NCBI GenBank assembly: GCA_040390065.1
Contig: JAZJZE010000009.1
Span: 474,930 to 538,929, forward strand
Length of the DNA stretch: 64,000 nucleotides
Direction of reading: 5' to 3'
DNA from: a bacterium
GTDB lineage: Archaea > Thermoplasmatota > E2 > JACPAO01 > JAHFTW01
Below the pieces are notes generated by a model, which saw only the letters and a list, made by a program, of their open reading frames with translations, did no database searches and was not told where the DNA came from. The position numbers and the translations under genes were made by a program. Positions 13,053 through 40,706 of this stretch are shown piece after piece; positions within the stretch are counted from its first letter, which is position 1, and each line of letters starts with the position of its first letter.

Positions 13053-13198
13053 GGAGCTTGCAGAGGGCGCCAAACGTTCCTCACCCAAAGTCGAGGGCCG
13101 CCCGATTCGGCCGTTGCGTCGCAGGCAATGGACCATGCAAGGACGGCCGGATGCCGCATGGCCAAGCGTTATGCCGCACCAACGACAGAACAACGGCC

Positions 13199-26008: not shown

Positions 26009-27433
26009 ATGCATGCACGCAGCGCACTGGCCCTTGCGGGGCTTCTCCTGTTGGCTGGATGCTCGACACCGTCCGATCCCGTCCACGTCGGGCCGACGAC
26101 TCCGCCCTCGGCGGGTCCGTGGCAGGTCACGTACGACTGCCCGCCTGGCAGCAGCACCACGAGCGAGTTTCCAGTGTGCACAATCCATGCGGGCACCACG
26201 GCGAGCGGTGGTGCAGTATGGGGCCACGCGCAGGACGCCAAGCACCCAAACGTGATTGTGCTCTCGATGTACGGCATCGAGCCGACAGACGTCGGGGCCG
26301 GGCCCGCGGGAACGGCGCGGTTCTACGAGACCTACCTCCTCGTCACGCAGGACGGAGGGTCCACATGGAAACGCGTCGACCTGCCAAAGATTCCGACGCT
26401 CGAGCCAGCCTCCGAATTGGCGGGCGTCGACGACGTCATGGTTCGCGGCCTCACCTTCGGCCCCGACGGCGTGCTTCATCTCTTTGGCGGCGCGACCCAT
26501 GAGGCCCCGTATCCCTCTTCCCCCGTCAAGGCGTTCGGGAACTCTCCCTCGGCGGGCGGAAACTACACCATCTTCCATGTCTCGACGCCAGACCTTGGCG
26601 TGACGTGGGGAAAGCCGACGACGCTCGGCTGGGGCCAATTCCAGGACTTCGCGGAAGGCATGGTCCTTGCCGACGGCACCATCGTCGCCACCTTCAACGG
26701 CGCGGGCCAGCCCGATGAAGCCCGCGTGTCCCACGATGCCGGCGCCACTTGGCAGGCAGTTGACCTCCCCCCAACATGCTACTACCGCTCGTGGCTGGCG
26801 CGAGTCGACGGGAAAGCGACCATCGGCTGCACCCTCGAGGCCGAGATTTGGCAATACAACGCGACATCGGGCGCATTCGAAGACCTGGCGCCCATCCCTG
26901 GCATGGGAGACTACCAGGACAACCCGTGGATAGGCCAGGGTCCAGACGGAAACGTGACCATGATCCTGCAGGAACATTACGGCGCCGATGGCCCTCGCGT
27001 CTTGCACAGTCACGACGGCGGTCGGACGTGGAGCAAGCCAGTGTTCATCGCGGCGAACTGCCAGGCCTGCGCCGGACTGTACGAGTATCAACCAGGGGAG
27101 GGATACGGGCTGGACGGACAGGGGAACCTGCACGTTGTCTTTGCGGGGTCGTTCCACGCAACGGTTCCAAACGAGGGCCTCTACCGGCGCGTCCACGCTG
27201 TCTATGGGCCCGACCTGACGCGCTTGCACGACGCTGTGATGTACAACATGAGCGAGACCTGGACGCCCGATGCGGGCTACGCAGCATGGCGGGTCGAGAA
27301 ACGTGCATCCTGGATTCATGCACCCAACGGGGTCGTCCAGGCACGCGCTGACGGCGTAGCAAGCGATGTCAACTGGTGCTGGCGTCAGGTCGCAGATGCC
27401 AAGTGGTATGATGGCGTTGGCCCTGGGCGCTGA
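26009..27433 (+). CDS. Asp-box/BNR lipoprotein; 3' end possibly aberrant
   Basis: LLAGC lipobox; TQDGGSTW, TPDLGVTW, SHDAGATW, SHDGGRTW. Confidence 0.7.
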   Translation: MHARSALALAGLLLLAGCSTPSDPVHVGPTTPPSAGPWQVTYDCPPGSSTTSEFPVCTIHAGTTASGGAVWGHAQDAKHPNVIVLSMYGIEPTDVGAGPAGTARFYETYLLVTQDGGSTWKRVDLPKIPTLEPASELAGVDDVMVRGLTFGPDGVLHLFGGATHEAPYPSSPVKAFGNSPSAGGNYTIFHVSTPDLGVTWGKPTTLGWGQFQDFAEGMVLADGTIVATFNGAGQPDEARVSHDAGATWQAVDLPPTCYYRSWLARVDGKATIGCTLEAEIWQYNATSGAFEDLAPIPGMGDYQDNPWIGQGPDGNVTMILQEHYGADGPRVLHSHDGGRTWSKPVFIAANCQACAGLYEYQPGEGYGLDGQGNLHVVFAGSFHATVPNEGLYRRVHAVYGPDLTRLHDAVMYNMSETWTPDAGYAAWRVEKRASWIHAPNGVVQARADGVASDVNWCWRQVADAKWYDGVGPGR

Positions 27434-27505
27434 CACGGTGACTGCTGCAACGGTGGCGAGGATGAGGAGCAAGGCTGCCAGGATGTTGGCGGGCCGTCTA
27501 TTCAT
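27281..27505 (-). other. Signal peptide plus Cys-rich peptide ORF lacking a nearby in-frame stop
   Basis: MNRR + hydrophobic stretch + ANA, then 44 aa with 7 Cys ending PCC; an out-of-frame TAG follows one base later. Confidence 0.45.
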
Positions 27506-27581
27506 GCTGCACCCGGAGCAACCGCGGGGGGCGGTGGCGCTGGTTTGAGTAGGAGGGTCAAGCGGTTCTGTGGTGGAGGAT

Positions 27582-27773
27582 TCATCGGCGTTTTCTCCGG
27601 GGTTTTTGGTTCATGAAGCCGTAGCCTGCGGCTACGATGAAGGTTAGACTGAGGAAGGTGAGGAAGGGCGTGTCGGCGATGTAGCCGAGGAACCCTGCGG
27701 CGGCTGCGGCGGCAACGCACAATGCGGAGCCGCCGTAGAGTTTCACTTCAGGTGCGAGCTGGTAGCGAGCCAT
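27582..27773 (-). CDS. 63-aa two-TM protein with basic tail
   Basis: GGAGG RBS; two hydrophobic helices; KPRRKRR. Confidence 0.65.
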   Translation of the reverse strand: MARYQLAPEVKLYGGSALCVAAAAAAGFLGYIADTPFLTFLSLTFIVAAGYGFMNQKPRRKRR

Positions 27774-27798
27774 GATTTGCCTCCGAGCAATCGCTGTC

Positions 27799-28359
27799 TC
27801 AGAACAATGCGCCCGTGGTGAGGTTGACTTCCTCGCGATGCGAGACTGGGGCGAGGTCCTTCATTTGCGGCATCCAGAACGTGGTCCAACCGCTGGAGAC
27901 GTCGTTCTGGAACGCCTCGACGTCCACGACGTAGGCGCCGAGCCCTTGCGGATCGACGGGGAAGTGGACTTCCACGTCGAAGGCGCCTGCTCCGGCCTTG
28001 TCCACGACGTAGGCGGAATAGGAGGGTTCGCTGTTGCCGCCCGGCGTCGGGTAGTACACGGTTGTTCCGACGCGGCTGCCGGCCAGGCTGGCCGCGTGTC
28101 CATCCGTGGAGTCGTCCATGCCCGCGTACGTGACTTCGGCGGCGGCGAGTCTTCCGTCCTTGAGAGCACCGCCGGTGCAACTCGTGAAGGCCGCGTGCTG
28201 GCCGCCGTCCTTTCCGTCCGTAGTGAAGTGGCAGGTGATCTCGTAGTGCTTGTCCTTCAGTTTGGAGGCGTCTGTGACCTTCGTTTCGCCGGGCTTTCCG
28301 GCGCAACCAGCCAAGGCCAGCAATGCCAGGCAGGCCAACGCGGCGATTGCGAATTGCAT
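27799..28359 (-). CDS. Hypothetical lipoprotein
   Basis: LALAGC lipobox; starts 1 nt after the upstream stop. Confidence 0.7.
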   Translation of the reverse strand: MQFAIAALACLALLALAGCAGKPGETKVTDASKLKDKHYEITCHFTTDGKDGGQHAAFTSCTGGALKDGRLAAAEVTYAGMDDSTDGHAASLAGSRVGTTVYYPTPGGNSEPSYSAYVVDKAGAGAFDVEVHFPVDPQGLGAYVVDVEAFQNDVSSGWTTFWMPQMKDLAPVSHREEVNLTTGALF

Positions 28360-28360
28360 G

Positions 28361-28561
28361 CTAACGCCCCCTTGGCGCTCGGCCTGCGCCGCCGGCTGCG
28401 GCGGCGAAGCCTTGGCGGCCCACGATGAAGAAGGCACCAATCATGACGAGCAGGAGCGGCAAGGGTAGGAAGAGGCCGCTGGCCCACCAGAACGCCAAGA
28501 CCGCGATGCCGCCTCCGACCAATGATGGTGGCCACGTGCGCCACTTCGATTGGAACGTCAT
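28361..28561 (-). CDS. 66-aa two-TM protein
   Basis: ATGA-coupled to upstream gene; hydrophobic hairpin. Confidence 0.6.
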   Translation of the reverse strand: MTFQSKWRTWPPSLVGGGIAVLAFWWASGLFLPLPLLLVMIGAFFIVGRQGFAAAAGGAGRAPRGR

Positions 28562-29109
28562 ACGAGCGGCACCTCGTAGGTTCCTCGCTCGGAGTCCTCA
28601 ATGGTCACACCGGCGGCGCTTGCATCAGTGTAGTCGACTTGCATCAAGGCGGCACTTCCGCGGCTGGCGCTCGTGGTGAAGAGCACCGTTCCGGAGGAGT
28701 CGTGGATGCTGACCTGCAAGGCGACGGCGCCGCTGCTGTACACCTTGGCGGCGTCCGTCTTGGCGGCGGGGTTCTGAATCGTGGTTCCCGTCTCGGTCCA
28801 GGCGGTGCCGTCGAAGCGGATGTACACGGTCTGGCCGGTGCCAGCGACTCCTGGGAGGCCGTTTCTGAGTTCGGCAATGCAGCCTTGCGTGTCGCCGACG
28901 ATGCGTTGCACACTGTGCAATGGGTCGGTGATGCTGCATCCCGGGTCGTGCGTGCTGGCCGCGGCCTTGGGCGGGGTGGCTTGGTGCGGCAAAAGCAACC
29001 ACACGCCGCCGACGACGAGGGCGGCGATGACGAAGTGTTTCATCGTGACTTGCTTCTTCTTGGCCCCATGGGGCGCTTGGTTGCCGAGTTGGCGGAATTT
29101 TCGTGTCAT
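28558..29109 (-). CDS. Membrane-anchored hypothetical protein
   Basis: AGGAG RBS; basic N-terminus, single TM, beta-rich ectodomain. Confidence 0.65.
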   Translation of the reverse strand: MTRKFRQLGNQAPHGAKKKQVTMKHFVIAALVVGGVWLLLPHQATPPKAAASTHDPGCSITDPLHSVQRIVGDTQGCIAELRNGLPGVAGTGQTVYIRFDGTAWTETGTTIQNPAAKTDAAKVYSSGAVALQVSIHDSSGTVLFTTSASRGSAALMQVDYTDASAAGVTIEDSERGTYEVPLV

Positions 29110-29132
29110 AGCCAGGCTCCTTTCGTGTCGAT

Positions 29133-29516
29133 TTGGACTGTCTTGATGGCGGTCATGTCGTCGATGGGGCAGGCGCGGTATCCGGGTTGCCACCATTGGT
29201 CCACGTCAGGCACCTTGCACGAACCGAGCATCTGATGATTCGCCACCACGGCCGATCCTGGGCGATTTACCCAGGCAGCCACGCCGCAGGCTTCGTGCAC
29301 GGGGCGTTGCTGCGAGAGCCTGCCCTTGCTGCACTCCTGGCGTGGCTTACCCTGCAGCCGCCGCTTAGCCAGTGGGCCATCGTGGGCCACGCTGCGCGCG
29401 AATGGGGCTGGTCAAGTTCAACGACGCGACACCGCTTGGCCCGCCTGGTACAAGCGGGCCTTTCCAGACGCGAGACCGTAAAGCACGAGCAATTCTTGCA
29501 CGCCGTCAGCAAGTGA
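29133..29516 (+). pseudogene. Degenerate double winged-helix regulator, paralog of 37760-38245
   Basis: GWSSSTTRHRLARLV matches GWPRSTTQQRLRRLV; first HTH appears eroded. Confidence 0.45.
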
Positions 29517-29594
29517 CCAGGGCATTGCAGCCAAACAACATTCAGGCGCTACAGCGCAAGACGCCAACTTTCTTCGCCCGCATCCTCTGTGCCA

Positions 29595-30749
29595 TCAGGC
29601 GCAGGCCGTCGTGGGGTAGCACTCGACGCCAGAATTGTCTCCGTTGACGAGGACGAATTCCGGTGGGCCGTCCCACGGACCGTAGTTGAGGCCCCAGGCC
29701 TTCATGTACTGATTTCTATCAATCGAGTAGGATTCAACGAACCGCCCAGACAAAGGGGGCCGCACGTGCTTCGCGGCCGTTGTGGAGTCGATGATGTTGT
29801 GACCGATTGATAGTTGCAGGTAGTGAACAGCGGGGAAGTAAGGTGTCACCGCGTCGCCTCGCACTGCCAAGACCGTCGCATAGACGTACATCGGTAACAG
29901 TTTTCCCTGACTTTGGCTGAAGTACAGGAAGCCCCAGACGGGCACTGTCCCGTCTCCAGGCGCGAGGTCCGGCGGAACCAAGGCCTGCTGTGTGGTCTCG
30001 AAGGAGTCGAACTTGATTTCCTGGAAGAGTCCCGCGTTATCCAGGCTGTTGCCTTCGGGGGCGGCCACTGCGACAAGGATTGCGTCGCTCGACCACAACT
30101 GGCCTTGCACGTCAGCCACATCCCGAGAGTACGTGAAGTTGAGGCCCGGCAGGTTGATTGCCGGGACACCGGGGGTGGGCAACGTGTTGTTGAGGCCGAA
30201 GGTTTTCCCGGTGTCCACATCGAGGAACTTGCGGATGTTCGTGGCGTTGCCCAGGAAATTGGTCGTAACGGTCCACACAGAATCCTTGTCCACAGTACTC
30301 AACCAGTAATTCACCGTCGTCCGATTCGTGATTGAGGGATGCAGGGACGACAGGGTGCTAAGGGTCGAGTTGAGCGCGCCTTGGTTGTTTGGATCAAGAA
30401 CGGGTGCCACGGGCAGCGCCACGACAGTCATGCTTGTAGATGCTAGCGCCTGGCGGACCGTCGTTCCCGCGTCCCCGACCTGGACGACTTTGGCGTAATG
30501 ATCAAGCGGCGAATAGTACGAAAAGTACTCGCTGCGTGCGTAGATGGCTCCGCTGTCATCAAACTGGTCCGTGACGCTGACCCCCACGAGAATGTAGGCG
30601 TGTGTCAGATTGCCGACTGCGTTTCCTGCTTGGCTCGTAAGTGAGTTCGCCGTGCGTGATACATCGGGGACGGGCGGAGCACCGCAGCCGGCCAGTAGAA
30701 CCGCGGCAAGGATTGACAGAGCCGTGATTTGCATGGTTGCGTGTTTCAT
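29595..30749 (-). CDS. Hypothetical lipoprotein
   Basis: VLLAGC lipobox; starts 4 nt after the stop of the 1404-aa gene. Confidence 0.75.
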   Translation of the reverse strand: MKHATMQITALSILAAVLLAGCGAPPVPDVSRTANSLTSQAGNAVGNLTHAYILVGVSVTDQFDDSGAIYARSEYFSYYSPLDHYAKVVQVGDAGTTVRQALASTSMTVVALPVAPVLDPNNQGALNSTLSTLSSLHPSITNRTTVNYWLSTVDKDSVWTVTTNFLGNATNIRKFLDVDTGKTFGLNNTLPTPGVPAINLPGLNFTYSRDVADVQGQLWSSDAILVAVAAPEGNSLDNAGLFQEIKFDSFETTQQALVPPDLAPGDGTVPVWGFLYFSQSQGKLLPMYVYATVLAVRGDAVTPYFPAVHYLQLSIGHNIIDSTTAAKHVRPPLSGRFVESYSIDRNQYMKAWGLNYGPWDGPPEFVLVNGDNSGVECYPTTACA

Positions 30750-30753
30750 TGTT

Positions 30754-33700
30754 TCAGCTCCACAAACTGTCGCCAACCGATTCATGCGGCCCCCAGGCAG
30801 GGTGGTAGCCGGAATCGTAGATGCCGGCGTTCGTCTTCATCAGGCTCATGTCGACTTGCGTCGAATAGTGGTTGAAGATGGTAAACCATGCGGAATGGTT
30901 GGGTCCCGGAGTGGTCTGCCATTGCATGGTATTGGCGCATGAAGGCGGTACGTTCGTGGCGCTGTAATCGCCTTCGGCTGAGAATTCCAGGCCGGGATCA
31001 TACGCACTGCCATCCATCAGGGTCTCGTACTGGTTCGAGTCCCCGTGCTCGTAGCAGTGGGTGTTCGCATTCGTTTTTCCGTTGTGGTCCTTGTACTCAT
31101 CCTGGAGGTAGAACGCGTAGTGGCCCCATTCATGTGCTAGGTCCTTGGCCCACCTGTTTCCAGGAGGGCCGTCGACCTGGACACCTACGTCCTTTGCCTC
31201 CGACATGGCCATAAAGACGTGACCAAGATTGGCAAACTTGAACTGGCAAGTAGATGGGACGGACTGACAGGCCGGATCAGTTGCCTTCTTGAAATCAATT
31301 CCGCCTACATTCGCCATGAACCAATGACCGACCGTATTGTCGGCCTTGTCGTGGAAAATCTGGATGTCCGCATTGACCCATTCCGGGTCAGTTGATTGAC
31401 TCCCAGTGCACGTGTGGATGGTGACCTTGCCAAACAGGAACTTGCCTGACGTGGCATCCCAGAGGTCGTCGCTGGCCGTCCTTATGGATCCTTGGAGGGA
31501 TTTCATCCATGCCGAATCCGCTGCCTCGCACCAGGGAACCGCTACGTCGACGTCGAAGCCCTTCACGTCCTTGACATGGGGGTCGAGTCCCCATCGGACC
31601 TCGTCCCAATTCGCGACGCCGTCGTGGTCGTAGTCGGAAGCGCCGTCATTGATGAACGGGTTGAGGCCGACGAAATTGGCAACAGTCGGATATGCATAGA
31701 CGCTCTGCGACAACGGGGACTCGCGATCCTTCATTTCCAGCGCGAAGGGAATCTTGTCACCGTCCTTTCCATTCGTGTACAAGTAGAACCACAATTGCCC
31801 TTCCACCCAGTCGCCCACGCCCCAGCCCTTGCAGTGACCGTACCCGTTTCCGTCGGCTGGAACGTCGTCGCCCAACCACGTGCCTGTCTGCATGCTATAG
31901 ACCAGCGTGCAGCCCGGATAGGCTTCCGGATGCGGGCCGATGTTGATTGGATGGGGTGCAATGAATCCATCGTCGTACAGGTTGAGAGTGGGGCCGACCA
32001 GCCACAACTGGTCCGGGACGTTGACCGCGAGGTCCGTCCACGCCGGTTCGGCCTCCGCTTGACCATTGGTCTCTTCCTGGCGATTGTTCACGCACGTCAC
32101 GCTCCAACACAACTCGTAATACGCGTTTCCGGCGCCTTGAATCATGGCATACCGCGTGACGTGTGCTCGAATCGACAAGTCCGCGTGCGGGTCCTGGTCG
32201 ATGCTGTCTTTGACGCCGTCGCCATCCGTGTCGGGGTCTACTGGATTCGTGCGTGTTGAGACAAGTTCAAGCCAATCCCCGATACCGTCGCCATCGGTGT
32301 CCTGCTTGAGGGGATTCGTGAAGTACGTCTTGTACACCCCGTAGACCTGAATCGTGACGCCCTTGACCTCGTTGTAGTCGCTCAAGCCGTCAAAGTCCGT
32401 GTCAACCTTGGAGTCGCTGGTCTTCCAGTAGTCTTCCTCGCAATTGTTGAGGCCGTCGCCGTCGGCGTCCATGACCCTGACGAAGTTGTTCTTGACGGTC
32501 TGCGCCTTGTCGGAGCCTACGCTAACCCAGAGTCGAATCTGGTAGCTGTTGATGACTTGGTCCGTTCCCGGCGGAAGGTTGCATGGGTAGGTATGGTCCG
32601 CGTACGGGCCACTGTACGTGTGGGGCAGGTTGTCTCCCCAATCCCATTCGTACGTGAGTTGGCCGCGGCTGTACGGGTCGTAGCTACACGACGCATCGAC
32701 GTGAACCACGGAATGGCTGGTCCCTTCCGCCGAGACGGTGAAGCAGACCTTGGGCGGGCCTAAGGCCGGCGGCGAGGGCGGATTCGACGGCGACGGGTTT
32801 GTTGCCTGGTTGGCTGTGGGCGAGGATTTCGTGATGATGATGTTGTCGACGGAGCCCTGGACGGAGCCCCACCCTCCCGACGGTGTGGCGAAGTCCGTGC
32901 TGCCGTAGGTTTGCATGCCAATCGTGCTGAACTGGAATTCGTCGCCTGCGGTCGTGCCGACTTGGCGGCTCCATGTCAGGACTTTCTTTCCGGTGCTGTC
33001 CGTGATCTCCAAGATCAGGGTCTTGGCGGCGGCCGTGTATGTCAGTTTGAACGATTGCTGGGGGTCGGTTTGGGAGCCCGGGCCGGCAGTGCCCACGTTG
33101 CAGGCCCAGCCGGGGGGCGGTCCTGATGCGGGGTTGTACGAGATGCAGTAGCCGGTCGGGTTGCCGACGTAGTCCGAGGTGTAGTCGTAGTAGAAGATGG
33201 CAAGCGTGCTGTAGCGGCCAAGGGCGCCGTTTCCGTCAGCCGGGCCCACGTAGAATGGCACGGCAAAACGCGTGCCCCCCTGCCGGCTCTCGACGTTCCA
33301 GTTCTCCGTAATCGTGAAGGTGTCCTGCATGGTCAGTGGCGCGTCGAGGGGCCGGCTGAAGTCCTCGTAGGAGGCATCGTTCATGTTGGACAAGAGCTGC
33401 ACGTTGTGGTTCCAGGCGTCCCAATGGATGTCGCTTAGGGGTTGGTCGTTTGTCCTTACGAATCCGTTTGCGTCATCGAAGGTGTAGACGGTACTGAAGT
33501 GGGGGACGTGGACGACGATGAGCCCATCGCTGGAGATTTCCGTTTCGAGGGTCAAGTTGTCCTCATTGCGGAAGGCGTAGCCGCTAAATCCCATGCCGTT
33601 GAGCCACGTCGTATTGTAGGCCACGTCCTGGCCCGACGTGTCATTGCCGCCGTCGAACGCAACGGCCAAGTGGTCCGACGGGGCCGCGACGGAAAGGTCG

Positions 33701-34968
33701 ACGGTTCCGTTGAGGCCGATGGCCGGGATGGTGCTTGCTACGGCCGTCGGGAGCGTGGCAAAGTCCACGACCATCGCGCGGTCCAGAAGTTGCACGGATG
33801 CCGGGTTGCCAATCGTGTAGAGGCTGCTTGAGCCGAGGGTGATTGCGGAGAAGTCCGTAATGGCGCCGCCGCCAGTCGTGAACTTGACGTAGGGGCCACC
33901 CAGGCCGTCCATGACGACGAAGGGCCGCGACGAACCCCAATCGTTTCCCAACAGGTTCACGATGGCCCCAGCGCGGAACACGGTTGTCGCATTCAAGGTC
34001 GGCGGCCCGGCAAAGAGTGTGGAAAGAAGGGTTGGGGTCAGCAGGCTCACGTTGAGGTCGACTTGGACACCGTTGGGCGTCGCTGGCATCTTGATGGGGG
34101 CATTCTTGAGGACGTCAAGAATTGCCGCGGCGTCGGTGATGCGGAACGTCGAATTCGATGGCCACGGCGCGCTCGGAATCACGTAGTGCGTCGCGGCGAC
34201 GTTGTCGGCATCATTCGATTCCAGAGTGACGTGGTTGGAGTTGGGGAAGACGGAAACGTCGTAGATGCCCGGCAGGGCCGATGTCCAATTGAAGACGAGT
34301 TCCTGGCTCTGGCCGGCCTTGATGATGGGCACGTACGCTACCTGCTGGAAGATGGAGTACTTGCCCTGGATGGAGACATCCAATGTCACGTTGACGACGG
34401 CCGCCGGTTGGCCGCCGAGGTTCCGGATGGTGGATTCGACGTAGAAACCGATTGGGTGGGGGATGACCTTGGGCTTTGAGGCGACCAGGTTCGCAAGGCC
34501 GGAGGTGCCCAGGATGGATTGGATGACGCCGCACGCATCCGGCAGCGCCGGCTTCACTCCGAGCCCAGGATCGGGCGCGGAGGGTAGCGAGCACGCCTTT
34601 GCGCACTTCGCAACCTTCACGCCAAGGGGTGTGGATGTAAGGTTGTTGGCGGTTCCCTGGGGGTTGGCCAAGGCGGAGTTGAGTGTCTTCGTCGTCTGGC
34701 CCGCAATGGATTGGGCGCATGCCACCGTGGCGTCGACTTGCTGCACGGGTGCCGACACGACCGAGGTCAGGTTGCCGGGGAGCTGGTTCGTCACGTTGGT
34801 AATCAATGGTTGCAGGGGCGGGATGTGCGGCAGGGGCGGAATGTTTGGCAAGGGCGGTAGGTTGGGCGTCGGTGGCACTTGGGCGTCGGCGGGTCCGCCA
34901 AGGCCGTTGAGGAGGAACGCTAGAGCGCATGCAACGGCGGGTAGCACTCGGGAAAGGTTGGGGTTCAC
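30754..34968 (-). CDS. Large secreted multidomain protein: CARDB, PKD, Ca-binding DxDGDG repeats, C-terminal CLCA-like Zn metalloprotease
   Basis: Signal peptide; TIRNLG...ESNDADN (CARDB); DASCSYDP..YEWDWGD (PKD); DTDGDG repeats; LAHEWGHYAFYLQDEY. Confidence 0.8.
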   Translation of the reverse strand: MNPNLSRVLPAVACALAFLLNGLGGPADAQVPPTPNLPPLPNIPPLPHIPPLQPLITNVTNQLPGNLTSVVSAPVQQVDATVACAQSIAGQTTKTLNSALANPQGTANNLTSTPLGVKVAKCAKACSLPSAPDPGLGVKPALPDACGVIQSILGTSGLANLVASKPKVIPHPIGFYVESTIRNLGGQPAAVVNVTLDVSIQGKYSIFQQVAYVPIIKAGQSQELVFNWTSALPGIYDVSVFPNSNHVTLESNDADNVAATHYVIPSAPWPSNSTFRITDAAAILDVLKNAPIKMPATPNGVQVDLNVSLLTPTLLSTLFAGPPTLNATTVFRAGAIVNLLGNDWGSSRPFVVMDGLGGPYVKFTTGGGAITDFSAITLGSSSLYTIGNPASVQLLDRAMVVDFATLPTAVASTIPAIGLNGTVDLSVAAPSDHLAVAFDGGNDTSGQDVAYNTTWLNGMGFSGYAFRNEDNLTLETEISSDGLIVVHVPHFSTVYTFDDANGFVRTNDQPLSDIHWDAWNHNVQLLSNMNDASYEDFSRPLDAPLTMQDTFTITENWNVESRQGGTRFAVPFYVGPADGNGALGRYSTLAIFYYDYTSDYVGNPTGYCISYNPASGPPPGWACNVGTAGPGSQTDPQQSFKLTYTAAAKTLILEITDSTGKKVLTWSRQVGTTAGDEFQFSTIGMQTYGSTDFATPSGGWGSVQGSVDNIIITKSSPTANQATNPSPSNPPSPPALGPPKVCFTVSAEGTSHSVVHVDASCSYDPYSRGQLTYEWDWGDNLPHTYSGPYADHTYPCNLPPGTDQVINSYQIRLWVSVGSDKAQTVKNNFVRVMDADGDGLNNCEEDYWKTSDSKVDTDFDGLSDYNEVKGVTIQVYGVYKTYFTNPLKQDTDGDGIGDWLELVSTRTNPVDPDTDGDGVKDSIDQDPHADLSIRAHVTRYAMIQGAGNAYYELCWSVTCVNNRQEETNGQAEAEPAWTDLAVNVPDQLWLVGPTLNLYDDGFIAPHPINIGPHPEAYPGCTLVYSMQTGTWLGDDVPADGNGYGHCKGWGVGDWVEGQLWFYLYTNGKDGDKIPFALEMKDRESPLSQSVYAYPTVANFVGLNPFINDGASDYDHDGVANWDEVRWGLDPHVKDVKGFDVDVAVPWCEAADSAWMKSLQGSIRTASDDLWDATSGKFLFGKVTIHTCTGSQSTDPEWVNADIQIFHDKADNTVGHWFMANVGGIDFKKATDPACQSVPSTCQFKFANLGHVFMAMSEAKDVGVQVDGPPGNRWAKDLAHEWGHYAFYLQDEYKDHNGKTNANTHCYEHGDSNQYETLMDGSAYDPGLEFSAEGDYSATNVPPSCANTMQWQTTPGPNHSAWFTIFNHYSTQVDMSLMKTNAGIYDSGYHPAWGPHESVGDSLWS

Positions 34969-35061
34969 GGGGTCACCTGTTCAATCGGCTTTTCTACGCG
35001 TGTGGGCCTAGCGGTGCTGCGGCTGGTGGTCGGTGCCCCACGCCCAAGGTCGATGCCAACG

Positions 35062-35080
35062 TGGCCCACAAATGGCCCAC
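35062..35080. promoter_or_regulatory. Tandem TGGCCCAC repeat, candidate RHH operator
   Basis: Copies at 35062-35069 and 35073-35080 (11-bp period) between divergent genes. Confidence 0.3.
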
Positions 35081-35117
35081 GTAGAGCCAAGACATAGAGT
35101 TTGTCCCAGGTTTGAGT

Positions 35118-35390
35118 ATGGGTCGCACGAAGATTCGAGGCAGCACTCCGGATTCCACGGATCGCATCCACGTCGCCGTCGACCGCGACTTGTTGAAGTG
35201 GATTGACGCCAACCTGGCGCCTGGTGGCCCGTTTGGCAGCATGACGCACGCCGTCGAGTTTGCCCTTCGCCACTTGCGCGACGAACAGGAAGCACTTCGT
35301 CAGGCGTGCAAAGACGGGAAAGTTCCCTTCAAGGATACCACAATGTGGCTGCTGTACCAGGAACTCCTGGACGAGTCCAGGCGCCGCTAA
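35118..35390 (+). CDS. Ribbon-helix-helix family regulator
   Basis: RIHVAVDRDLLKWID...FGSMTHAVEFALR. Confidence 0.7.
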   Translation: MGRTKIRGSTPDSTDRIHVAVDRDLLKWIDANLAPGGPFGSMTHAVEFALRHLRDEQEALRQACKDGKVPFKDTTMWLLYQELLDESRRR

Positions 35391-36754
35391 GGCTGAAGCC
35401 ACCAATCCCCGCCCTTCTGCAGCTTTGCAAGGACGGGCGCCAATGAGACATCCGTGGCCGCATCCACCGCATAGGAAGCCTGCAAGGTGACGGCTACGCG
35501 AAGCCACTCCGCAGCCTTCTCTGCATGCGGGTGCGCGTCGCGCGCGCTCGCGAGGCTCGCGCAGCAGCGCGCGGCTTCGTAGGCATTCTCGGCGCGAAGG
35601 GGAACCAAGTCGATTCCCAGGCGGATTTCCTGCTGCAACCACAAGTCGGCCTCCGTGTGCATCAGCAACGCTTGCTCGATGCGGTTCAAGCCGGAAAGGC
35701 ATAAGCCGCGAACAAAGGTTGCTTCCGCGTCTGTAGGGTCAAGATCGCGTGCCCGGTCTACTTGGCGCAGGGCCTCCGCGAATCGGCGTTGGTTGACCAA
35801 CTCATAGGCCCATTCCCGGTACTCCCCGCCCTTGGCAGCAGCGACGGGGTCATGACCGGGTTGGCGGCGGTGAATGATGATTCGGCGTTGCGTGAATCGA
35901 ACGGTGGGCCAGGCCAGGACCGCGACCAGGGCGAGTCCGGCCACAGGCCACAACAGCCACGCAACAGGGCTGGCGGAACTGCGGGATGGCACAATCGCGT
36001 GGCCGTCTACAACGGCCTCGCCGTCGCCGGACAAGGCAGCAGTGATGGGAAGGGACGTGCCGCGGCCAGCAAGACGCGCCGCCAGATTTCCTGAGACGAC
36101 TAGGTGGTTTCCCGTCAGGGCGGTGGAGGCGCCGCCTACGTCGAGACTCCCCACCGCCGACTCCAACGCAAGCCCCGTCGTGCCAAGGTTGGCGTCCCCA
36201 TCCGTGAGCAAGGTAGGCGGCACCATGCCGAGAGGCACCATGAGGCGCCCATTGGTCACGTAGAGGTAAACCTCCACGTCGCGTCCGAAGATTTGAGACA
36301 TGTCGGGCACGGCGGCAGGAAGGAGGGGGGATTGTTGAGGGCCCGTTTGGACATCCTGCGTCTGGCCATTGGCGGTCAAGGTTGCATTCCATTTCCACAA
36401 GGACAGCACGAACGAGCCGGCAATTTCCACGACGCCAATGCACCCGGACCACGCCAGCGCGGCGCCGATTGAACGCGTCATCGGGGGACGCGCAGCATTA
36501 ACGTAGGGTACGCGTTGCAGCGTCGACGCGTCGGACGCGCTGGTAGATTGGCAGGTTGCCTTTACGGACGGCGGCGGAGCGCCGTCCACGGGGAAGACGT
36601 TCCACCGGAAGCTGTTTCGCGTTGCCGTCCCTTGCAGCGTCGCATCCGCGTAGTCCTGCGGTTGGGTGGTCGGGTTGACGTCCTTCGGATTTCCGGTGGC
36701 GTGGACGGAGACATCGGCGGAATCTACCTCCATGTGCAGCCGCTCGGCCGCCAT
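35387..36754 (-). CDS. Single-pass membrane protein with beta-rich N-domain and C-terminal TPRs
   Basis: TM WLLWPVAGLALVAVLAW; ARDLDPTDAEATFVRGLCL and NAYEAARC TPR patterns; CTTAAT ~27 nt upstream. Confidence 0.65.
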   Translation of the reverse strand: MAAERLHMEVDSADVSVHATGNPKDVNPTTQPQDYADATLQGTATRNSFRWNVFPVDGAPPPSVKATCQSTSASDASTLQRVPYVNAARPPMTRSIGAALAWSGCIGVVEIAGSFVLSLWKWNATLTANGQTQDVQTGPQQSPLLPAAVPDMSQIFGRDVEVYLYVTNGRLMVPLGMVPPTLLTDGDANLGTTGLALESAVGSLDVGGASTALTGNHLVVSGNLAARLAGRGTSLPITAALSGDGEAVVDGHAIVPSRSSASPVAWLLWPVAGLALVAVLAWPTVRFTQRRIIIHRRQPGHDPVAAAKGGEYREWAYELVNQRRFAEALRQVDRARDLDPTDAEATFVRGLCLSGLNRIEQALLMHTEADLWLQQEIRLGIDLVPLRAENAYEAARCCASLASARDAHPHAEKAAEWLRVAVTLQASYAVDAATDVSLAPVLAKLQKGGDWWLQP

Positions 36755-37759: not shown

Positions 37760-38245
37760 ATGGGCCCGAACCAGGCCACTGTTCGCCGGGCCAGCATCCT
37801 GGCTTGGGTTGAGGCCAATCCGGGCCAAGGCTTCCGCGCCCTTTCACGAGGAACCTGCATCCCGACCGGGACGCTGGCGCACCATCTTGGCATCCTGAAG
37901 CGACGTGGCCTCGTGGCGGACAGGGCGCTTGGCCCTCGCCGCTTGTTCTACCCCACCGACGCCATCGTGGACGACCCCGCCAAGGCGGCGATGAACCTTC
38001 ACCCCGGCTTGGCCGCCCTTTACGCGTTCGTGCAGGCCAACGGTCCCTGCATGCAGAACGTCGTTCTTGCCGCCTTCGAGGCGCAGGGTTGGCCGCGTTC
38101 CACGACGCAGCAGCGCCTCCGCCGCCTTGTGGCTGTCGGCGGCTTGCAGGCGGTGCGGGGCGTGCGGTCACTACGATACGCGGTCCAGGCACCCGCGGTG
38201 GCCCAGTTGCCTCTTGCCTCCCGCCTGCAGGTGGTGTTGGCATGA
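37760..38245 (+). CDS. Double winged-helix transcription regulator
   Basis: VEANPG...TGTLAHHLGILKRRGLV and a second HTH STTQQRLRRLV. Confidence 0.75.
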   Translation: MGPNQATVRRASILAWVEANPGQGFRALSRGTCIPTGTLAHHLGILKRRGLVADRALGPRRLFYPTDAIVDDPAKAAMNLHPGLAALYAFVQANGPCMQNVVLAAFEAQGWPRSTTQQRLRRLVAVGGLQAVRGVRSLRYAVQAPAVAQLPLASRLQVVLA

Positions 38246-38340
38246 CCACCAAGACAATCCAAGTCTGCTCCGTTTGCGGACGCGCCTGTCCCGGCGGCGA
38301 CTGCGCGCATCCGGCGTGTCCTTCGCAGCGGGTGTTCTAA
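38242..38340 (+). CDS. 32-aa Cys-rich microprotein
   Basis: MTTKTIQVCSVCGRACPGGDCAHPACPSQRVF; ATGA and TAATG overlaps on both sides. Confidence 0.6.
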   Translation: MTTKTIQVCSVCGRACPGGDCAHPACPSQRVF

Positions 38341-39257
38341 TGTCATCCGCGCGCCAGGCCGTGTACGCGAAGGTCACCGACGCCATCATGGGGAAGCTCC
38401 GCGAAGGCGTTGCGCCGTGGCACAAGCCCTGGAGCGATGCGGATCGGCCTCGCAACTTCGCCACCGGTCGAGCCTACTCCGGCATCAACGCATTCGCGCT
38501 CGGCTTGTTCGGGCCGACGCCGTATTGGCTGACCTTCAATCAGGCACGCCTGATGGATTGCCAGGTGCGCCAGGGGGCCAAGGGTGTGCCCATCCTGTTC
38601 TATGGTACGCAGACGCGGCAACGCTTGGTCAAAGGCAACAACGGGGCGGCCGTGGAGGATCATGAGGTTGGCTTCGTGCGGTACTTCCACGTCTTCAACG
38701 CCGTTGACGTGGACGGCATCGACGCCGCCAGACTCGGCCAATCGCCATCGCCCTTCGAGCCCATTGAGGTCGCTCAAGGGTTGCTTTCCGCCGTGCAGCC
38801 GACGCCGGAGATTAGGCATGGCGGCGACGTGGCTGCCTTCAACCCGGCCCGTGACGTGCTTCGGATGCCGCGGCCCGAGGACTTCGCTCGCAGCGTGGAC
38901 TACTACGCCATCCTCTTCCACGAACTGACCCACTGGACGGGCCACCAGTCGCGCCTCGACCGCGAGTCTTTGCGCGACGCGAAGAGCTTCGGGGACGAAT
39001 CGTACAGCCGCGAGGAACTGGTGGCCCAAATGGGCGCCGGCTTCCTATGCGCCTTGACGGGCATCCAAAACGACACCATCGAGCAGTCCGCAAGCTACCT
39101 CGACAATTGGCTCAAGCAACTCCAGAACGACCGCGGCCTACTCATCTCTGCCGCGAGCCAGGCGCAACGCGCCACCGACTACTTGACCCGCAGCTGGACC
39201 CAGCCCGCGGCAATCGGCGTGACCGACCAAGAAACGGAGGCCACAGCGGAATCGTGA
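38340..39257 (+). CDS. ardC: ArdC-family antirestriction protein (ssDNA-binding N-domain plus zincin-like domain)
   Basis: PWHKPW, YSGIN, WLTFNQA, VFN, HELTHWTGH..RL.R, YSREELVA, YLDNWL. Confidence 0.92.
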   Translation: MSSARQAVYAKVTDAIMGKLREGVAPWHKPWSDADRPRNFATGRAYSGINAFALGLFGPTPYWLTFNQARLMDCQVRQGAKGVPILFYGTQTRQRLVKGNNGAAVEDHEVGFVRYFHVFNAVDVDGIDAARLGQSPSPFEPIEVAQGLLSAVQPTPEIRHGGDVAAFNPARDVLRMPRPEDFARSVDYYAILFHELTHWTGHQSRLDRESLRDAKSFGDESYSREELVAQMGAGFLCALTGIQNDTIEQSASYLDNWLKQLQNDRGLLISAASQAQRATDYLTRSWTQPAAIGVTDQETEATAES

Positions 39258-39329
39258 AGCCTCCCCTTGAATCGTGAGCGCCATTGCGGCGACCTTTCCC
39301 CCTTCCCCAGCGAATGCCAGGTGAAACCC

Positions 39330-40706
39330 ATGAAGAAAATTGAAACTGAAGTGCCAGCCACGAGTGGCGAGAAGCTGCTCGTTCCCGTCAACCAAGTCCG
39401 CGAGTCCCCGGACAATGGCCGCATCAACTACGATGAAGCCGCCCTGAAGGACCTGATGCAATCCATCAAGTCCACGCGCCTGGAAGAAGACGTGGTAGTG
39501 CGACGCGTCGAAGCCGACGTGTACGAGGTCGTGGATGGGCACCGTCGATTCCGTGCTGTGCAGCGCCTCGGCTGGGACGCCGTGCCGGTCCTCGTCAAGC
39601 CCTTGACGGAGGAGGAGGCGCGGTTGTACCGTGTGGCGACGATCTTCCAACGCGCCAACGCAACGCCGTACGAGGAAGCACGCTACTTGGCCGCGGCTTT
39701 GAAGAATCCGGGCATGACGCGGCAACTCTTGTCGCAAACGTGCGGCATCAAGCCCGGCACCCTGCGAAACCGATTGGAACTCCTGGAGTTTCCGGAGCAG
39801 GTCGCCAAACGCGTCGGTGTCGATGGATTCGCGGCGGAGCACGCCCGCATCCTTGCCAGCCTTGCTGCCTACCCCGACGCCTTGGCAGTTGGCTTGAAGG
39901 TGGCGGAGGACAAGGACACTGAGGGTACGATGCGCTCCGCTCCCCGCTTCTTCGAGGACGTCAAGAAGGCGCTCGTCAAGGCCAACGCTGCCAGGGACCC
40001 CACGAGCAACCGCCTCTGGGAAGTGCGAAACGCCTTCCCGACTTTCGAGGGCCAAGCCGGCAAGTTGGCTTGCGTGAAACACAAGACCCAGTTCGGTGAA
40101 GCTGTCCTGGTCCTCGACGTTGCGGCCTTTGATGGACTCGTGGACAAGGCGAAGGCGACGTTGGAGCGCCGCAAGGAAAAGGACGCCAAGCCGAAGGAGG
40201 ATGCCGACGAGGCACGCCGGATTCGGCGCCGGGAGCGGCAACTCGAAGTCGAACACGCCGCCAACGAATGGAAACGGGATGCGCTGCGGGAGGCCGCCTT
40301 TTCGCGCCTCGGCAACATCAAGGAGGTTGAGGCCTCGGACTTGGCCAGCCCCCTTCTGGACGCCCTGGAAGTCGGCATCGACGAGAACGACATCGAGCCC
40401 CTGGCAGAGGCGGCGGGCGTCCCCGTGGAACGCCTGCGAGGCTTCCTTGCGTGGAACAATGAGGGCGAAGCCGCCAGCCAGGACCTCATACAGCACTCGA
40501 CGCCGATTGAGTTGCTGCGACTGGTGCTCGCCTTGAGCGTGGCTCGCAGCCTCGATGGCCAGTCCGGGACTTGGAGCACTCTGTGCGGGCACTGGACCGG
40601 CAAGACCATGGCGGCTTGGGACGACGCCGCCACGGAGGCGGCCCGCGGCATCGTCAAGGCCAAGGGCAAGCAGGGCGAAGCGGAGGAAGCCGAGGCAACC
40701 GCCTAG
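39330..40706 (+). CDS. ParB/Spo0J-like protein with extended C-terminus (mobile-element type)
   Basis: LMQSI...YEVVDGHRRFRA ParB-N motif, followed by HTH; AGGTGA RBS; no parA nearby. Confidence 0.85.
   Translation: MKKIETEVPATSGEKLLVPVNQVRESPDNGRINYDEAALKDLMQSIKSTRLEEDVVVRRVEADVYEVVDGHRRFRAVQRLGWDAVPVLVKPLTEEEARLYRVATIFQRANATPYEEARYLAAALKNPGMTRQLLSQTCGIKPGTLRNRLELLEFPEQVAKRVGVDGFAAEHARILASLAAYPDALAVGLKVAEDKDTEGTMRSAPRFFEDVKKALVKANAARDPTSNRLWEVRNAFPTFEGQAGKLACVKHKTQFGEAVLVLDVAAFDGLVDKAKATLERRKEKDAKPKEDADEARRIRRRERQLEVEHAANEWKRDALREAAFSRLGNIKEVEASDLASPLLDALEVGIDENDIEPLAEAAGVPVERLRGFLAWNNEGEAASQDLIQHSTPIELLRLVLALSVARSLDGQSGTWSTLCGHWTGKTMAAWDDAATEAARGIVKAKGKQGEAEEAEATA

What the first reader, a model, noticed from the sequence alone, without database searches (positions are those of the whole stretch)
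30754..31600. CLCA-type zinc metalloprotease as the C-terminal tip of a 1404-aa secreted archaeal protein
Seen, in order: ASDDLWDAT..FLFGKVTI, ADIQI, LAHEWGHYAFYLQDEY (HEWGH at 31120-31134), TLM, EF, SAWFTI. Known: animal CLCA N-domains show the same series (AS.YLF.AT, F..V.I, ADV, HEWAH...DEY, SIM, EF, S.W.VI), normally N-terminal and followed by vWA. Here it is C-terminal, after CARDB, PKD and Ca-binding repeats, with no vWA seen. Inference: a displayed or released protease effector acting on glycoproteins or S-layers.
Basis: partly seen in the sequence, partly recalled or inferred. Interest (0 to 1): 0.7.

Follow-up and report, generated by a model that had tools for sequence, protein, structure and literature searches.

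The report
Archaeal secreted protein with CLCA-like protease tip
A 1404-residue secreted protein of a high-GC archaeon ends in an intact zinc protease domain from a large, mostly bacterial family that is the nearest prokaryotic relative of the animal CLCA proteases; it is a real but fairly ordinary new member of that family.

Summary
ORF 30754-34968 (minus strand, 1404 aa) carries all the listed motifs in order, with HEWGH at 31134-31120.

The C-terminal about 240 residues are an intact metzincin-type zinc protease. H1279, E1280, H1283, Y1292 and M1318 are each conserved in 225 of 225 relatives, and D1290 in 215 of 225.

The nearest described family is CLCA_N (PF08434), but only below threshold: 12-14 bits against a cut-off of 25.6. 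At E<=1, 22 of 52 family members hit CLCA and 1 hits M64.

CLCA-specific features are missing: the motif glycine, the large insert with a second zinc site, and vWA. Igalysin's structural zinc cysteines are missing too.

The domain belongs to a large prokaryotic family. There are 186 representative clusters and 289 confirmed genome loci. Of the 78 loci kept, 75 are Chloroflexota. The protease sits at any position in these proteins.

The whole architecture recurs in one distant protein, P0053, which NCBI names as from a Thermoplasmata archaeon.

A model (pLDDT 72.9) matches only metzincins, and weakly.

Substrate and role are inferred, not shown. Verdict: new member of a known kind.

The parts
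30754..34968 (-). Whole gene, 1404 aa, GTG start. Collinear with P0053 over almost its full length.
34882..34968 (-). Signal-peptide-like N-terminus (residues 1-29: MNPNLSR, then a hydrophobic core, then ADA-QV).
   Evidence: Read from the sequence. It is the top hydrophobic window, residues 5-27. No signal-peptide predictor was run.
34804..34881 (-). Proline-rich linker (PPLPNIPPLPHIPPLQ). It is encoded partly by an 18-nt tandem repeat at 34812-34857.
34192..34440 (-). CARDB domain (residues 177-259).
   Evidence: Pfam PF07705, E 9.5e-6, 26.2 bits against cut-off 22.7
32764..34185 (-). Region of unknown fold (residues 262-735), ending in a Pro/Ser linker. It is conserved only with P0053.
   Evidence: No Pfam hit at E<=1. 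BLASTP to P0053 gives 25% identity and E 6e-36 over residues 160-713.
32479..32751 (-). PKD-like domain (residues 740-830).
   Evidence: Pfam PKD E 0.041, below cut-off. It aligns with the PKD/PKD_4 region of P0053.
32194..32469 (-). Four thrombospondin-type-3 calcium-binding repeats (DxDxDG at residues 834, 856, 890, 913).
31636..32193 (-). Beta-rich domain of unknown family lying before the protease (residues 926-1111).
   Evidence: No Pfam hit. Collinear with P0053. The model is of low confidence, pLDDT mostly under 50. Atlas leads point to archaeal TSP3-bearing clusters.
31600..31635 (-). Fifth DxDxDG motif (DYDHDG, residue 1112).
30844..31560 (-). Metzincin-type catalytic domain (residues 1137-1375).
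   Evidence: Family HMM 149.8 bits. Model pLDDT 72.9 and pTM 0.79, with strand-helix-strands-helix order. PDB fold hits are all metzincins.
31093..31134 (-). Zinc-binding motif HEWGHYAFYLQDEY (H1279, E1280, H1283, D1290, E1291, Y1292).
   Evidence: The motif lies in and just after model helix 142-157.
31015..31023 (-). Candidate Met-turn TLM (M1318).
   Evidence: M is conserved in 225 of 225 relatives.
30937..31056 (-). Span bounded by the conserved cysteine pair C1305 and C1344. This is either a disulfide or a structural metal site; which one is undecided.
   Evidence: C1305 in 219 of 225 and C1344 in 214 of 225. The geometry could not be measured.
30757..30840 (-). C-terminal tail (residues 1377-1404). 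It is unstructured in the model but conserved with P0003, and a P..GP motif is shared across the family.
29595..30749 (-). Downstream gene for a lipobox protein (LLAGC). Its ATG lies 4 nt after the protease stop codon, with GGAG upstream, so it is probably co-transcribed.
   Evidence: No family hit.

Best explanation
The gene encodes a Sec-exported, calcium-stabilised, multidomain extracellular protein. Its last 240 or so residues are a catalytically competent zinc endopeptidase of the metzincin clan.

The domain belongs to a large, uncharacterised prokaryotic family that is mostly from Chloroflexota, with a small Thermoplasmata branch. Its nearest described relatives are the animal CLCA N-terminal proteases, followed by the bacterial igalysins (M64).

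Proposed mechanism:
- Zinc is held by H1279, H1283 and D1290.
- E1280 activates the water.
- Y1292 acts as the nearby tyrosine that stabilises the intermediate.
- M1318 forms the Met-turn under the metal.
- C1305 and C1344 brace the lower subdomain.
- The CARDB, PKD, TSP3 and two unknown beta-rich modules hold the enzyme on a polymeric substrate or surface, where it cuts proteins, possibly glycosylated ones.

Shown here: the motifs, their conservation, family membership and a metzincin-like fold. Inferred: the metal ligands, activity, export, substrate, and any role for the co-transcribed lipoprotein.
For: Reality of the gene:
- The whole protein is collinear with P0053: 29% identity, E 1e-47 over residues 764-1351, and 25%, E 6e-36 over residues 160-713. 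So the reading frame is a real gene.

Family:
- 186 hits at E<=1e-3 among 1.84 billion representatives.
- 149 of 149 stored hits keep HExxH.
- Among 225 domain sequences, H, E, H, Y and M are each 225 of 225, and D is 215 with 10 E.
- An HMM built without the query scores it 149.8 bits, against 8.4 for the best of 1000 shuffles.

Nearest described family:
- PF08434 CLCA is the only Pfam hit for the domain: E 0.14 on the 332-aa fragment, 0.24 on the 482-aa fragment, and 0.036 on the 275-aa fragment.
- 10 of the 54 relatives scanned hit CLCA at E<=0.01, and no other zincin family appears.
- At E<=1, 22 of 52 hit CLCA, against 1 for M64, 1 for M43 and 2 for SprT-like.
- Atlas scores for CLCA clusters are 0.94 and 0.93.
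- The spacing HExxH + 6 residues + DEY is the same as in CLCA1 and igalysins (passages).

Fold:
- The model has pLDDT 72.9 and pTM 0.79, and HExxH lies on helix 142-157.
- All 35 PDB rows listed are metzincins: ADAMTS-1/4/5, ADAM8/10/17, snake-venom metalloproteinases, MMPs, karilysin and snapalysin. The CLCA1 paper also reports M12 proteases as its best structural matches.

Export: a signal-like N-terminus and no other strongly hydrophobic segment.
Against: - The CLCA match is below Pfam's cut-off (12-14 bits against 25.6). Only 1 of the 54 relatives scanned passes it (P0017, 25.8 bits).
- Fold matches are weak: the best E is 2.1e-4 and TM-scores are 0.18-0.39. No CLCA1 or igalysin chain is among the rows shown.
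- Sequence and profile searches of the PDB gave only a motif-level hit to IgA protease, E 0.058.
- The metzincin glycine after the active-site helix is absent (Y1287; in the family F 151, Y 62, G 2 of 225). The turn geometry could therefore differ from known metzincins.
- No prodomain or latency mechanism was identified.
- There is no evidence on substrate, expression or secretion.
- No conserved neighbour genes were found near the relatives.
Confidence: 0.65

Rival explanations
1. It is an igalysin (MEROPS M64) rather than a CLCA relative: a bacterial-type IgA-protease-like metzincin acquired by an archaeon.
For: - It has the same HExxH + 6 residues + DEY spacing.
- The only PDB profile hit is IgA protease 9ekk/9qdh, E 0.058, on the motif.
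- An Atlas M64-containing cluster scores 0.89.
- Both papers call igalysins the family closest to CLCA.
- The D-to-Met spacing here is short (28 residues), against 58 in IgAse and 71 in CLCA1.
Against: - PF09471 gives no hit for the query at E<=10 and matches only 1 of 52 members, at 0.07.
- The igalysin structural-zinc ligands are missing. The Met-turn is TLM (family S/T-A-M), not C-x-M. There is no Cys in the C-terminal helix SAWFTIFNHY. The Glu of DEY is N in 117 of 225 relatives.
- The motif glycine is absent.
Confidence: 0.12
2. It is a distinct metzincin family of its own. Its resemblance to CLCA and M64 is limited to the shared Asp/Tyr zinc motif, through convergence or very deep common descent, and the family is structurally nearer to adamalysins.
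For: - The best fold hits are ADAMTS-4 and ADAMTS-1 and other M12B enzymes.
- All CLCA Pfam matches stop at the motif, profile position about 149 of 266.
- The family signature HExxH-Y-x-[LF]-[FY]-L-x-D-x-Y, without Gly, is unlike either family.
- No Pfam, NCBIfam or PDB entry captures it.
Against: - CLCA matches span about 130 profile positions upstream of and including the motif, not the motif alone.
- They recur in 22 of 52 members, while Reprolysin and M10 never appear.
- The third ligand is Asp, not the His of adamalysins.
- CLCA1 itself gives M12 enzymes as its best structural matches, so the fold hits do not separate the two ideas.
Confidence: 0.18
3. The domain is a non-catalytic relic, and the protein is a surface adhesin or structural 'large repetitive protein'.
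For: - NCBI names the homologue P0053 a 'large repetitive protein'.
- About 80% of the protein is binding-type modules.
- Lenart et al. describe many substituted, inactive CLCA sites (abstract).
Against: Every catalytic and metal-binding position is intact here and nearly invariant in 225 relatives. That is the pattern of purifying selection on an active site.
Confidence: 0.05

Closest known systems
Animal CLCA N-terminal metallohydrolase ('CLCAsins'; Pfam PF08434; CLCA1 cryo-EM, bioRxiv 10.1101/2025.10.18.683246; abstract, passages and sections 13 and 31 read)
   Same: - The upper subdomain gives the only Pfam match.
- HExxH is followed by six residues and then DEY.
- Asp is the third zinc ligand, with a nearby Tyr and a Met-turn.
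- It is secreted.
- Structural neighbours are M12-type metzincins in both cases.
   Different: - The Pfam score is below the family cut-off.
- The glycine of HExxHxxxG is missing.
- There are 28 rather than 71 residues from Asp to Met, so the large beta-rich insert and its Cys/Cys/His second zinc site are absent.
- There are no vWA, BSR, inhibitory or FnIII modules.
- The domain is at the C-terminus, not the N-terminus.
- Autocleavage is unknown.
Prokaryotic CLCA_N proteins of Chloroflexi and Thermococcus (Lenart et al. 2013, PMC3650047; passages and section 8 read)
   Same: A CLCA-like protease domain set in species-specific, non-CLCA architectures in Chloroflexi and in an archaeon. Of the 78 genome loci kept here, 75 are Chloroflexota and 1 is Thermoplasmatota.
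   Different: - I could not check whether the strains named in that paper carry this same subfamily.
- That paper counted only a handful of strains and argued for transfer from animals.
- The Thermoplasmata architecture (CARDB, unknown region, PKD, TSP3, unknown domain, protease) is not described there, as far as the passages read show. Its supplementary files were not consulted.
Igalysins (MEROPS M64; Thomasclavelia ramosa IgAse, PMC12237041, passages read; PDB 3P1V, 9EKK)
   Same: - Metzincins with Asp as the third ligand, an extra residue before the turn, DEY, a tyrosine near the zinc, and no prodomain.
- The catalytic domain is embedded among lectin-like and beta-sandwich domains.
- There is a weak PDB profile hit on the motif.
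   Different: - Pfam M64 is not matched.
- The structural zinc site is absent (Glu, plus the Cys of C-x-M, plus two helix Cys).
- There is no Gly in the motif.
- The connecting segment is shorter (28 against 58 residues).
CLCA_X family of phages and plasmids (Lenart et al. 2013, section 8 read)
   Same: Prokaryotic proteins that are distant relatives of CLCA_N and often very long, with no known partner domains.
   Different: - The CLCA_X motif is HExxHxxxD, whereas here it is HExxHx6DxY.
- CLCA_X proteins are mostly on mobile elements. tblastn of this domain found nothing in 72,556 plasmid or 50,697 phage records at E<=0.01.

Membership tests
CLCA_N / CLCAsin (PF08434) | Pfam model matched at or above the gathering score | tested here: not met
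   12.0, 11.3 and 14.0 bits against a cut-off of 25.6. It is nevertheless the only Pfam family hit, and it is hit by 22 of 52 relatives at E<=1.
CLCA_N / CLCAsin (PF08434) | Zinc motif HExxHxxxGxxDEY with Asp as third ligand and a neighbouring Tyr | tested here: inconclusive
   HEWGHYAFYLQDEY has the same length and the same H, E, H, D, E and Y positions. The Gly position is Y here, and F 151 / Y 62 / G 2 of 225 in the family. The nearest relative P0003 does have the Gly.
CLCA_N / CLCAsin (PF08434) | Met-turn methionine below the zinc site | tested here: met
   M1318 is conserved in 225 of 225. This is sequence-level evidence only, because the geometry in the model could not be inspected.
CLCA_N / CLCAsin (PF08434) | Unusually large lower subdomain (118 residues between the active-site helix and the C-terminal helix) with a second zinc site (Cys187, Cys250, His255) | tested here: not met
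   D1290 to M1318 is 28 residues, against 71 in CLCA1. The Pfam match ends at profile position 149 of 266. The Glu of DEY is not conserved in the family (N in 117 of 225).
CLCA_N / CLCAsin (PF08434) | Followed by vWA, beta-sheet-rich, inhibitory and FnIII-like domains; autocatalytic cleavage | tested here: not met
   No vWA or FnIII hit in the 1404-aa protein, nor in the 54 relatives scanned. The domain is at the C-terminus. Autocleavage cannot be tested with these tools.
Igalysin (MEROPS M64, PF09471) | Pfam Peptidase_M64 match | tested here: not met
   No hit for the query at E<=10. 1 of 52 relatives hits, at E 0.07.
Igalysin (MEROPS M64, PF09471) | Structural zinc bound by the Glu after the third ligand, the Cys of a C-x-M Met-turn and two Cys of the C-terminal helix | tested here: not met
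   The Met-turn is T-L-M. The helix SAWFTIFNHY has no Cys. Only two conserved Cys (1305 and 1344) exist, and they are at other positions.
Metzincin clan | HExxH on an active-site helix, a third ligand H or D about ten residues on, and a conserved Met downstream | tested here: met
   Model helix 142-157 carries H150, E151 and H154. D161 and M189 follow.
Metzincin clan | Fold similarity to solved metzincins | tested here: met
   All 35 PDB rows shown are metzincins. The best is ADAMTS-4 2rjp_D, E 2.1e-4, probability 1.00. The similarity is weak: TM-scores are only 0.18-0.39. Viral-library hits are MMP-like, none at E<=0.001.
Prokaryotic CLCA_N-like family defined here (Chloroflexota-dominated) | Significant match to a family profile built without the query, with all invariant residues present | tested here: met
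   149.8 bits, E 5.7e-45, against 8.4 bits for the best of 1000 shuffles. The invariant W1146, G1175, W1197, GG1222-1223, H, E, H, Y and M are all present.

The most novel reading that the evidence does not exclude
The animal CLCA protease domain is not an animal invention that leaked into a few microbes, as was argued in 2013 from its patchy distribution. It is instead an offshoot of a large, old prokaryotic metzincin family, which is abundant and multi-copy in Chloroflexota and has a divergent Thermoplasmata branch. The compact, Gly-less form seen here would then be a separate, still unnamed metzincin family alongside CLCAsins and igalysins, with its own turn geometry after the active-site helix.
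Probability: 0.3. Interest if true: 0.55.

Novelty: new member of a known kind. Interest (0 to 1): 0.33.

Why it matters
CLCA1 has only just been recognised as a metzincin, and its substrates are still unclear. A large, sequence-diverse prokaryotic sister family gives comparative material for working out which features are core and which are animal additions: Asp/Tyr zinc site and Met-turn on one side, and large insert, second zinc, vWA-linked autoinhibition on the other.

The family's size also bears on the direction of the proposed transfer between animals and prokaryotes. There are 186 clusters at 50% identity and 289 genome loci.

For archaeal biology, this adds a candidate extracellular protease to Thermoplasmatota. 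That phylum is already discussed as a protein degrader in sediments. This context comes from search listings and abstracts of PMC9123169 and PMC9239135 and one passage of the latter.

For this single gene the gain is modest. It annotates one hypothetical protein and one homologue.

Tried and rejected
- **PDB by sequence.** The query domain gave nothing at E<=10. P0017, P0003 and P0043 gave nothing relevant. The A1 profile gave only a motif-level IgA protease hit.
- **Word-index homologue searches.**
  - The protease region found only the query itself.
  - The N-terminal part found only TSP3-repeat proteins.
  - P0053 found only proteins that share its Big_9 domain.
- **Mobile-element origin of the domain.**
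  - tblastn against plasmids and phages found no match.
  - No flanking direct repeats were convincing.
  - There are no tRNA genes and no Rfam hits.
  - GC3 is only mildly lower than in housekeeping genes (0.78 against 0.83-0.87), and most of the GC dip comes from codon positions 1 and 2. Recent transfer is therefore not shown.
- **Conserved neighbours.** None of five neighbouring proteins has a homologue in the 78 related loci.
- **Second model.** Residues 926-1404 were modelled to look for a prodomain-like contact. The upstream domain came out below pLDDT 50 and is unusable.
- **Trees.** The query groups with P0003 (0.83 in FastTree, 91 SH-aLRT). P0053 joins them with 0.91 and 72. The branches are long and the deeper order is unresolved. 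I draw no conclusion about donor or direction.
- **Small upstream ORF.** 35112-35390 (+) looked like a ribbon-helix-helix protein by eye but has no Pfam or PDB support.
- **Could not be done.**
  - No bona fide CLCA or M64 sequences were available for a profile-profile comparison.
- **Correction.** A recount gives 10 of 54.
Full report
**1. What is in the sequence**

The finding lies on the minus strand. ORF 30754..34968 (-) encodes 1404 residues from a GTG start that has AGGTGA 5 nt upstream.

- ASDDLWDAT at residue 1165, followed by FLFGKVTI
- ADIQI at 1200
- LAHEWGHYAFYLQDEY, with HEWGH at 1279-1283, which is window 31134-31120
- TLM at 1316-1318
- LEF at 1327
- SAWFTI at 1359

An identical 1404-aa protein is on record from a contig of 608,712 bases.

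**2. Context**

The window is archaeal. It carries:
- an RFC small subunit (484 bits against a cut-off of 303);
- exosome Csl4 (132 bits against 90);
- TrmY at 180.4 bits, just under its cut-off of 183;
- a TruD that passes the broad TIGR00094 model (241 bits against 172) (Pfam).

GC is 0.66-0.70 over most of the window. It drops to 0.56-0.63 between about 26.8 and 36 kb, and the minimum of 0.56 falls on the protease domain itself. Most of that dip comes from codon positions 1 and 2. GC3 of the gene is 0.78, and 0.68 over residues 1201-1350, against 0.83-0.87 in housekeeping genes. This is only a weak hint of foreign origin.

The protease gene sits in a run of minus-strand genes for exported or lipobox proteins. 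The next gene starts 4 nt after the protease stop codon, with GGAG upstream. None of these neighbours has a family assignment, and none has a homologue near the relatives' loci.

**3. Architecture**

The domains, in order, are:
- a signal-like N-terminus, which is the only strongly hydrophobic stretch (residues 5-27);
- a proline-rich linker partly encoded by an 18-nt tandem repeat;
- CARDB at 177-259, above Pfam's cut-off;
- about 470 residues with no family;
- a PKD-like domain, below cut-off here but aligned with the PKD of a homologue;
- four thrombospondin-type-3 DxDxDG repeats, with a fifth at residue 1112;
- a beta-rich domain of unknown family at 926-1111;
- the protease;
- a 28-residue tail.

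There is no vWA domain. No second transmembrane segment or C-terminal anchor is visible.

**4. The protease domain belongs to a real, large family**

- phmmer of residues 1130-1404 against 1.84 billion representatives found 186 proteins at E<=1e-3. The best non-self hit is P0003 at 3.5e-22.
- All 149 stored hits keep HExxH.
- A profile built without the query scores it 149.8 bits, against 8.4 for the best of 1000 shuffles.
- The 225 domain sequences comprise 147 proteins, counting the query, and 78 loci. Conservation among them:
  - H1279, E1280, H1283, Y1292 and M1318: each 225 of 225
  - D1290: 215, with 10 E
  - C1305: 219
  - C1344: 214
  - the Glu of DEY: N in 117, E in 48
  - the position where CLCA and igalysins have Gly: F 151, Y 62, G 2

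The family signature is therefore HExxH-Y-x-[LF]-[FY]-L-x-D-x-Y, then Cys, then Met, then Cys.

**5. Which known family is nearest**

- Pfam gives only PF08434 (CLCA N-terminal) for the domain, at 11.3-14 bits against a cut-off of 25.6. The match covers profile positions 21-149 of 266.
- I scanned 54 of the 150 listed relatives. These were most of those up to about 1000 aa plus a dozen or so longer ones. Of these, 10 hit CLCA at E<=0.01, one (P0017) just above the cut-off, and no other zincin family appeared.
- Of the 52 members of alignment A1, 22 hit CLCA at E<=1. M64 was hit by 1, M43 by 1 and SprT-like by 2.
- The language-model atlas ranks two CLCA clusters at 0.94 and 0.93, behind an unnamed bacterial cluster at 0.96. 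An M64-containing cluster scores 0.89.
- Sequence and profile searches of the PDB give only a motif-level hit to IgA protease (M64), E 0.058.

**6. Fold**

AlphaFold2 with the 52-sequence alignment gave pLDDT 72.9 and pTM 0.79. The order of elements is strand, long helix, four or five strands, then a helix at 142-157 that carries HExxH, and a C-terminal helix at 231-239. The last 28 residues are unstructured.

Foldseek against the PDB returned only metzincins in the 35 rows shown: ADAMTS-4/-1/-5, ADAM8/10/17, snake-venom metalloproteinases, karilysin, MMP-1/8/11 and snapalysin. These matches are weak. The best E is 2.1e-4 and TM-scores run from 0.18 to 0.39. The viral library gave MMP-like hits, none at E<=0.001.

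The CLCA1 cryo-EM preprint likewise reports M12 enzymes as the best structural matches of CLCA1 (passage). Its entry 9R2T did not appear in my results.

**7. Comparison with CLCA1 and igalysins**

This comparison draws on passages read.

Shared with both families:
- HExxH, then six residues, then D-E-Y;
- Asp as the third ligand;
- a tyrosine next to the metal;
- a Met-turn.

Different from CLCA1:
- no Gly in the motif;
- 28 instead of 71 residues from Asp to Met, so the large insert and its Cys/Cys/His zinc site are absent;
- no vWA or later domains.

Different from igalysins:
- no C-x-M;
- no cysteines in the C-terminal helix;
- the Glu is not conserved in the family.

The domain is therefore CLCA-like in its upper subdomain and zinc motif, but it is not a CLCAsin or an igalysin by their defining features.

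**8. Distribution and architecture of relatives**

A scan of one genome per species with the pattern HE[WLM][GAS]HY[AL][LF][FY] matched 402 stretches. Of these, 289 were confirmed and the best 80 were kept, as 78 loci. The 78 loci break down as:
- 75 Chloroflexota
- 1 Thermoplasmatota (L023)
- 1 Candidatus Altimarinota
- 1 unplaced bacterium

By my count of the contig lengths listed, 21 of the 78 lie on contigs of 100 kb or more, including complete chromosomes. Several genomes hold two or three copies. The window's own genome was not in that collection.

Partner domains vary. They include FG-GAP, Laminin_G_3, cohesin/dockerin, LysM, the proprotein-convertase P domain, TSP3 and CARDB/PKD. L023 carries six PPC domains plus Big_3_5. 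The protease is N-terminal in 26, central in 97 and C-terminal in 26 of 149 relatives (some of these may be fragments). A C-terminal position is therefore not unusual for the family.

**9. The whole architecture recurs once**

P0053 (1526 aa) is collinear with the query. It shows 25% identity over residues 160-713 and 29% over 764-1351. It has its own signal peptide, and its protease is also at the C-terminal end. NCBI names it 'MAG: large repetitive protein [Thermoplasmata archaeon]', on a 666,170-base contig.

P0003 is a 296-aa fragment and the closest domain relative. It ends at the same point as the query and shares the tail.

In both trees the query groups with P0003 (0.83 in FastTree, 91 SH-aLRT). 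P0053 joins them with 0.91 and 72. The branches are long and the deeper order is unresolved, so I infer no donor.

The window's organism is probably also a member of Thermoplasmatota. That is an inference from this one homologue and was not tested.

**10. Function**

I commit to an exported, calcium-stabilised, substrate-tethered zinc endopeptidase (confidence about 0.65 for this identity). Within that, I lean to extracellular degradation or remodelling of polymeric, possibly glycosylated, proteins. This rests on three analogies:
- the binding-type partner domains;
- the glycoprotein-directed activities reported for CLCA1 and igalysins;
- the peptidase-based lifestyle discussed for Thermoplasmatota (listing and abstracts; one passage).

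None of this is shown here. Latency is unexplained. No prodomain is recognised, and the model of the preceding domain was unusable. The conserved but unstructured tail is a candidate regulatory element only by position.

**11. Novelty**

Lenart et al. (2013) already reported CLCA_N domains in Chloroflexi and one archaeal genus in species-specific architectures. So this is a new member of a known kind.

What is new is the scale of the prokaryotic family. Most of it lies under Pfam's threshold, with a compact Gly-less form and a Thermoplasmata branch that carries a conserved 1400-1500-residue architecture. That scale weakens the 2013 'patchy distribution' argument for transfer from animals. Direction was not tested.

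I found no paper describing this family beyond those cited.

**12. Limits**

- No CLCA or M64 sequences were available for profile-profile comparison.
- Model coordinates could not be inspected.
- Supplementary files of the papers were not consulted.

Noticed in passing
window 38067-39257 (+) and 39267-40706 (+): An ArdC-type anti-restriction gene sits next to a ParB-like gene, inside an archaeal chromosome. ArdC shows ArdcN plus a zincin-like MPTase-PolyVal domain, and phrog_7245 at 1.5e-67. ParB matches TIGR00180 at 1e-28. ArdC relatives occur in 3034 plasmid records, 1709 of them conjugative; the best match is 44% identity to Hymenobacter plasmids. This suggests a remnant of an integrated bacterial-type mobile element. 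No integrase, tRNA or flanking repeats were found.
   Followed up: partly
window about 26800-36000: GC falls to 0.56-0.63 against 0.66-0.70 elsewhere, with the minimum exactly over the protease domain (31000-31599). GC3 is only mildly lower, so amino-acid composition explains most of the dip.
   Followed up: partly
window 29595-30749 (-), 28558-29196 (-), 27799-28440 (-): Three downstream same-strand genes encode proteins with signal or lipobox-like N-termini (LLAGC, LALAGC) and no family assignment. The first is translationally coupled to the protease gene. None is conserved near relatives.
   Followed up: partly
window 35112-35390 (+): A 92-aa ORF is transcribed divergently from the protease gene. 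By eye it resembles a ribbon-helix-helix regulator, but it has no Pfam or PDB support.
   Followed up: partly
window 6165-13193 (-), 17047-18852 (-), 26009-27433 (+): A cluster of glycan-related genes: a PMT_2-like glycosyltransferase, a GT2 or cellulose-synthase-like protein of 820 aa, GH26, and two BNR/Asp-box proteins. The region may be devoted to surface or extracellular polymers.
   Followed up: no
L023 3592-7554 (+) (Thermoplasmata archaeon, GC about 0.45): A second archaeal carrier of the protease family, with a quite different architecture: six PPC domains, Big_3_5, the protease in the middle, then TSP3 repeats. It does not group with the query's trio in the trees.
   Followed up: partly
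L006/L061/L066; L007/L008/L054; L009/L015; L022/L076: Single Chloroflexota genomes hold two or three loci of the family, so it has expanded by paralogy there.
   Followed up: no
P0003 (motif region), P0043, P0053: The zinc motif varies among the query's closest relatives. P0003 has the full CLCA/igalysin form with Gly (HEMMHYALGLEDEY). P0043 has Asn at that place and a C-I-M Met-turn like igalysins. P0053 has E-E-Y and S-I-M.
   Followed up: partly
window 30757-30840 (-), residues 1377-1404: The C-terminal tail is unstructured in the model, yet it is conserved with P0003 and carries a P..GP motif shared across the family. Its role is unknown.
   Followed up: no
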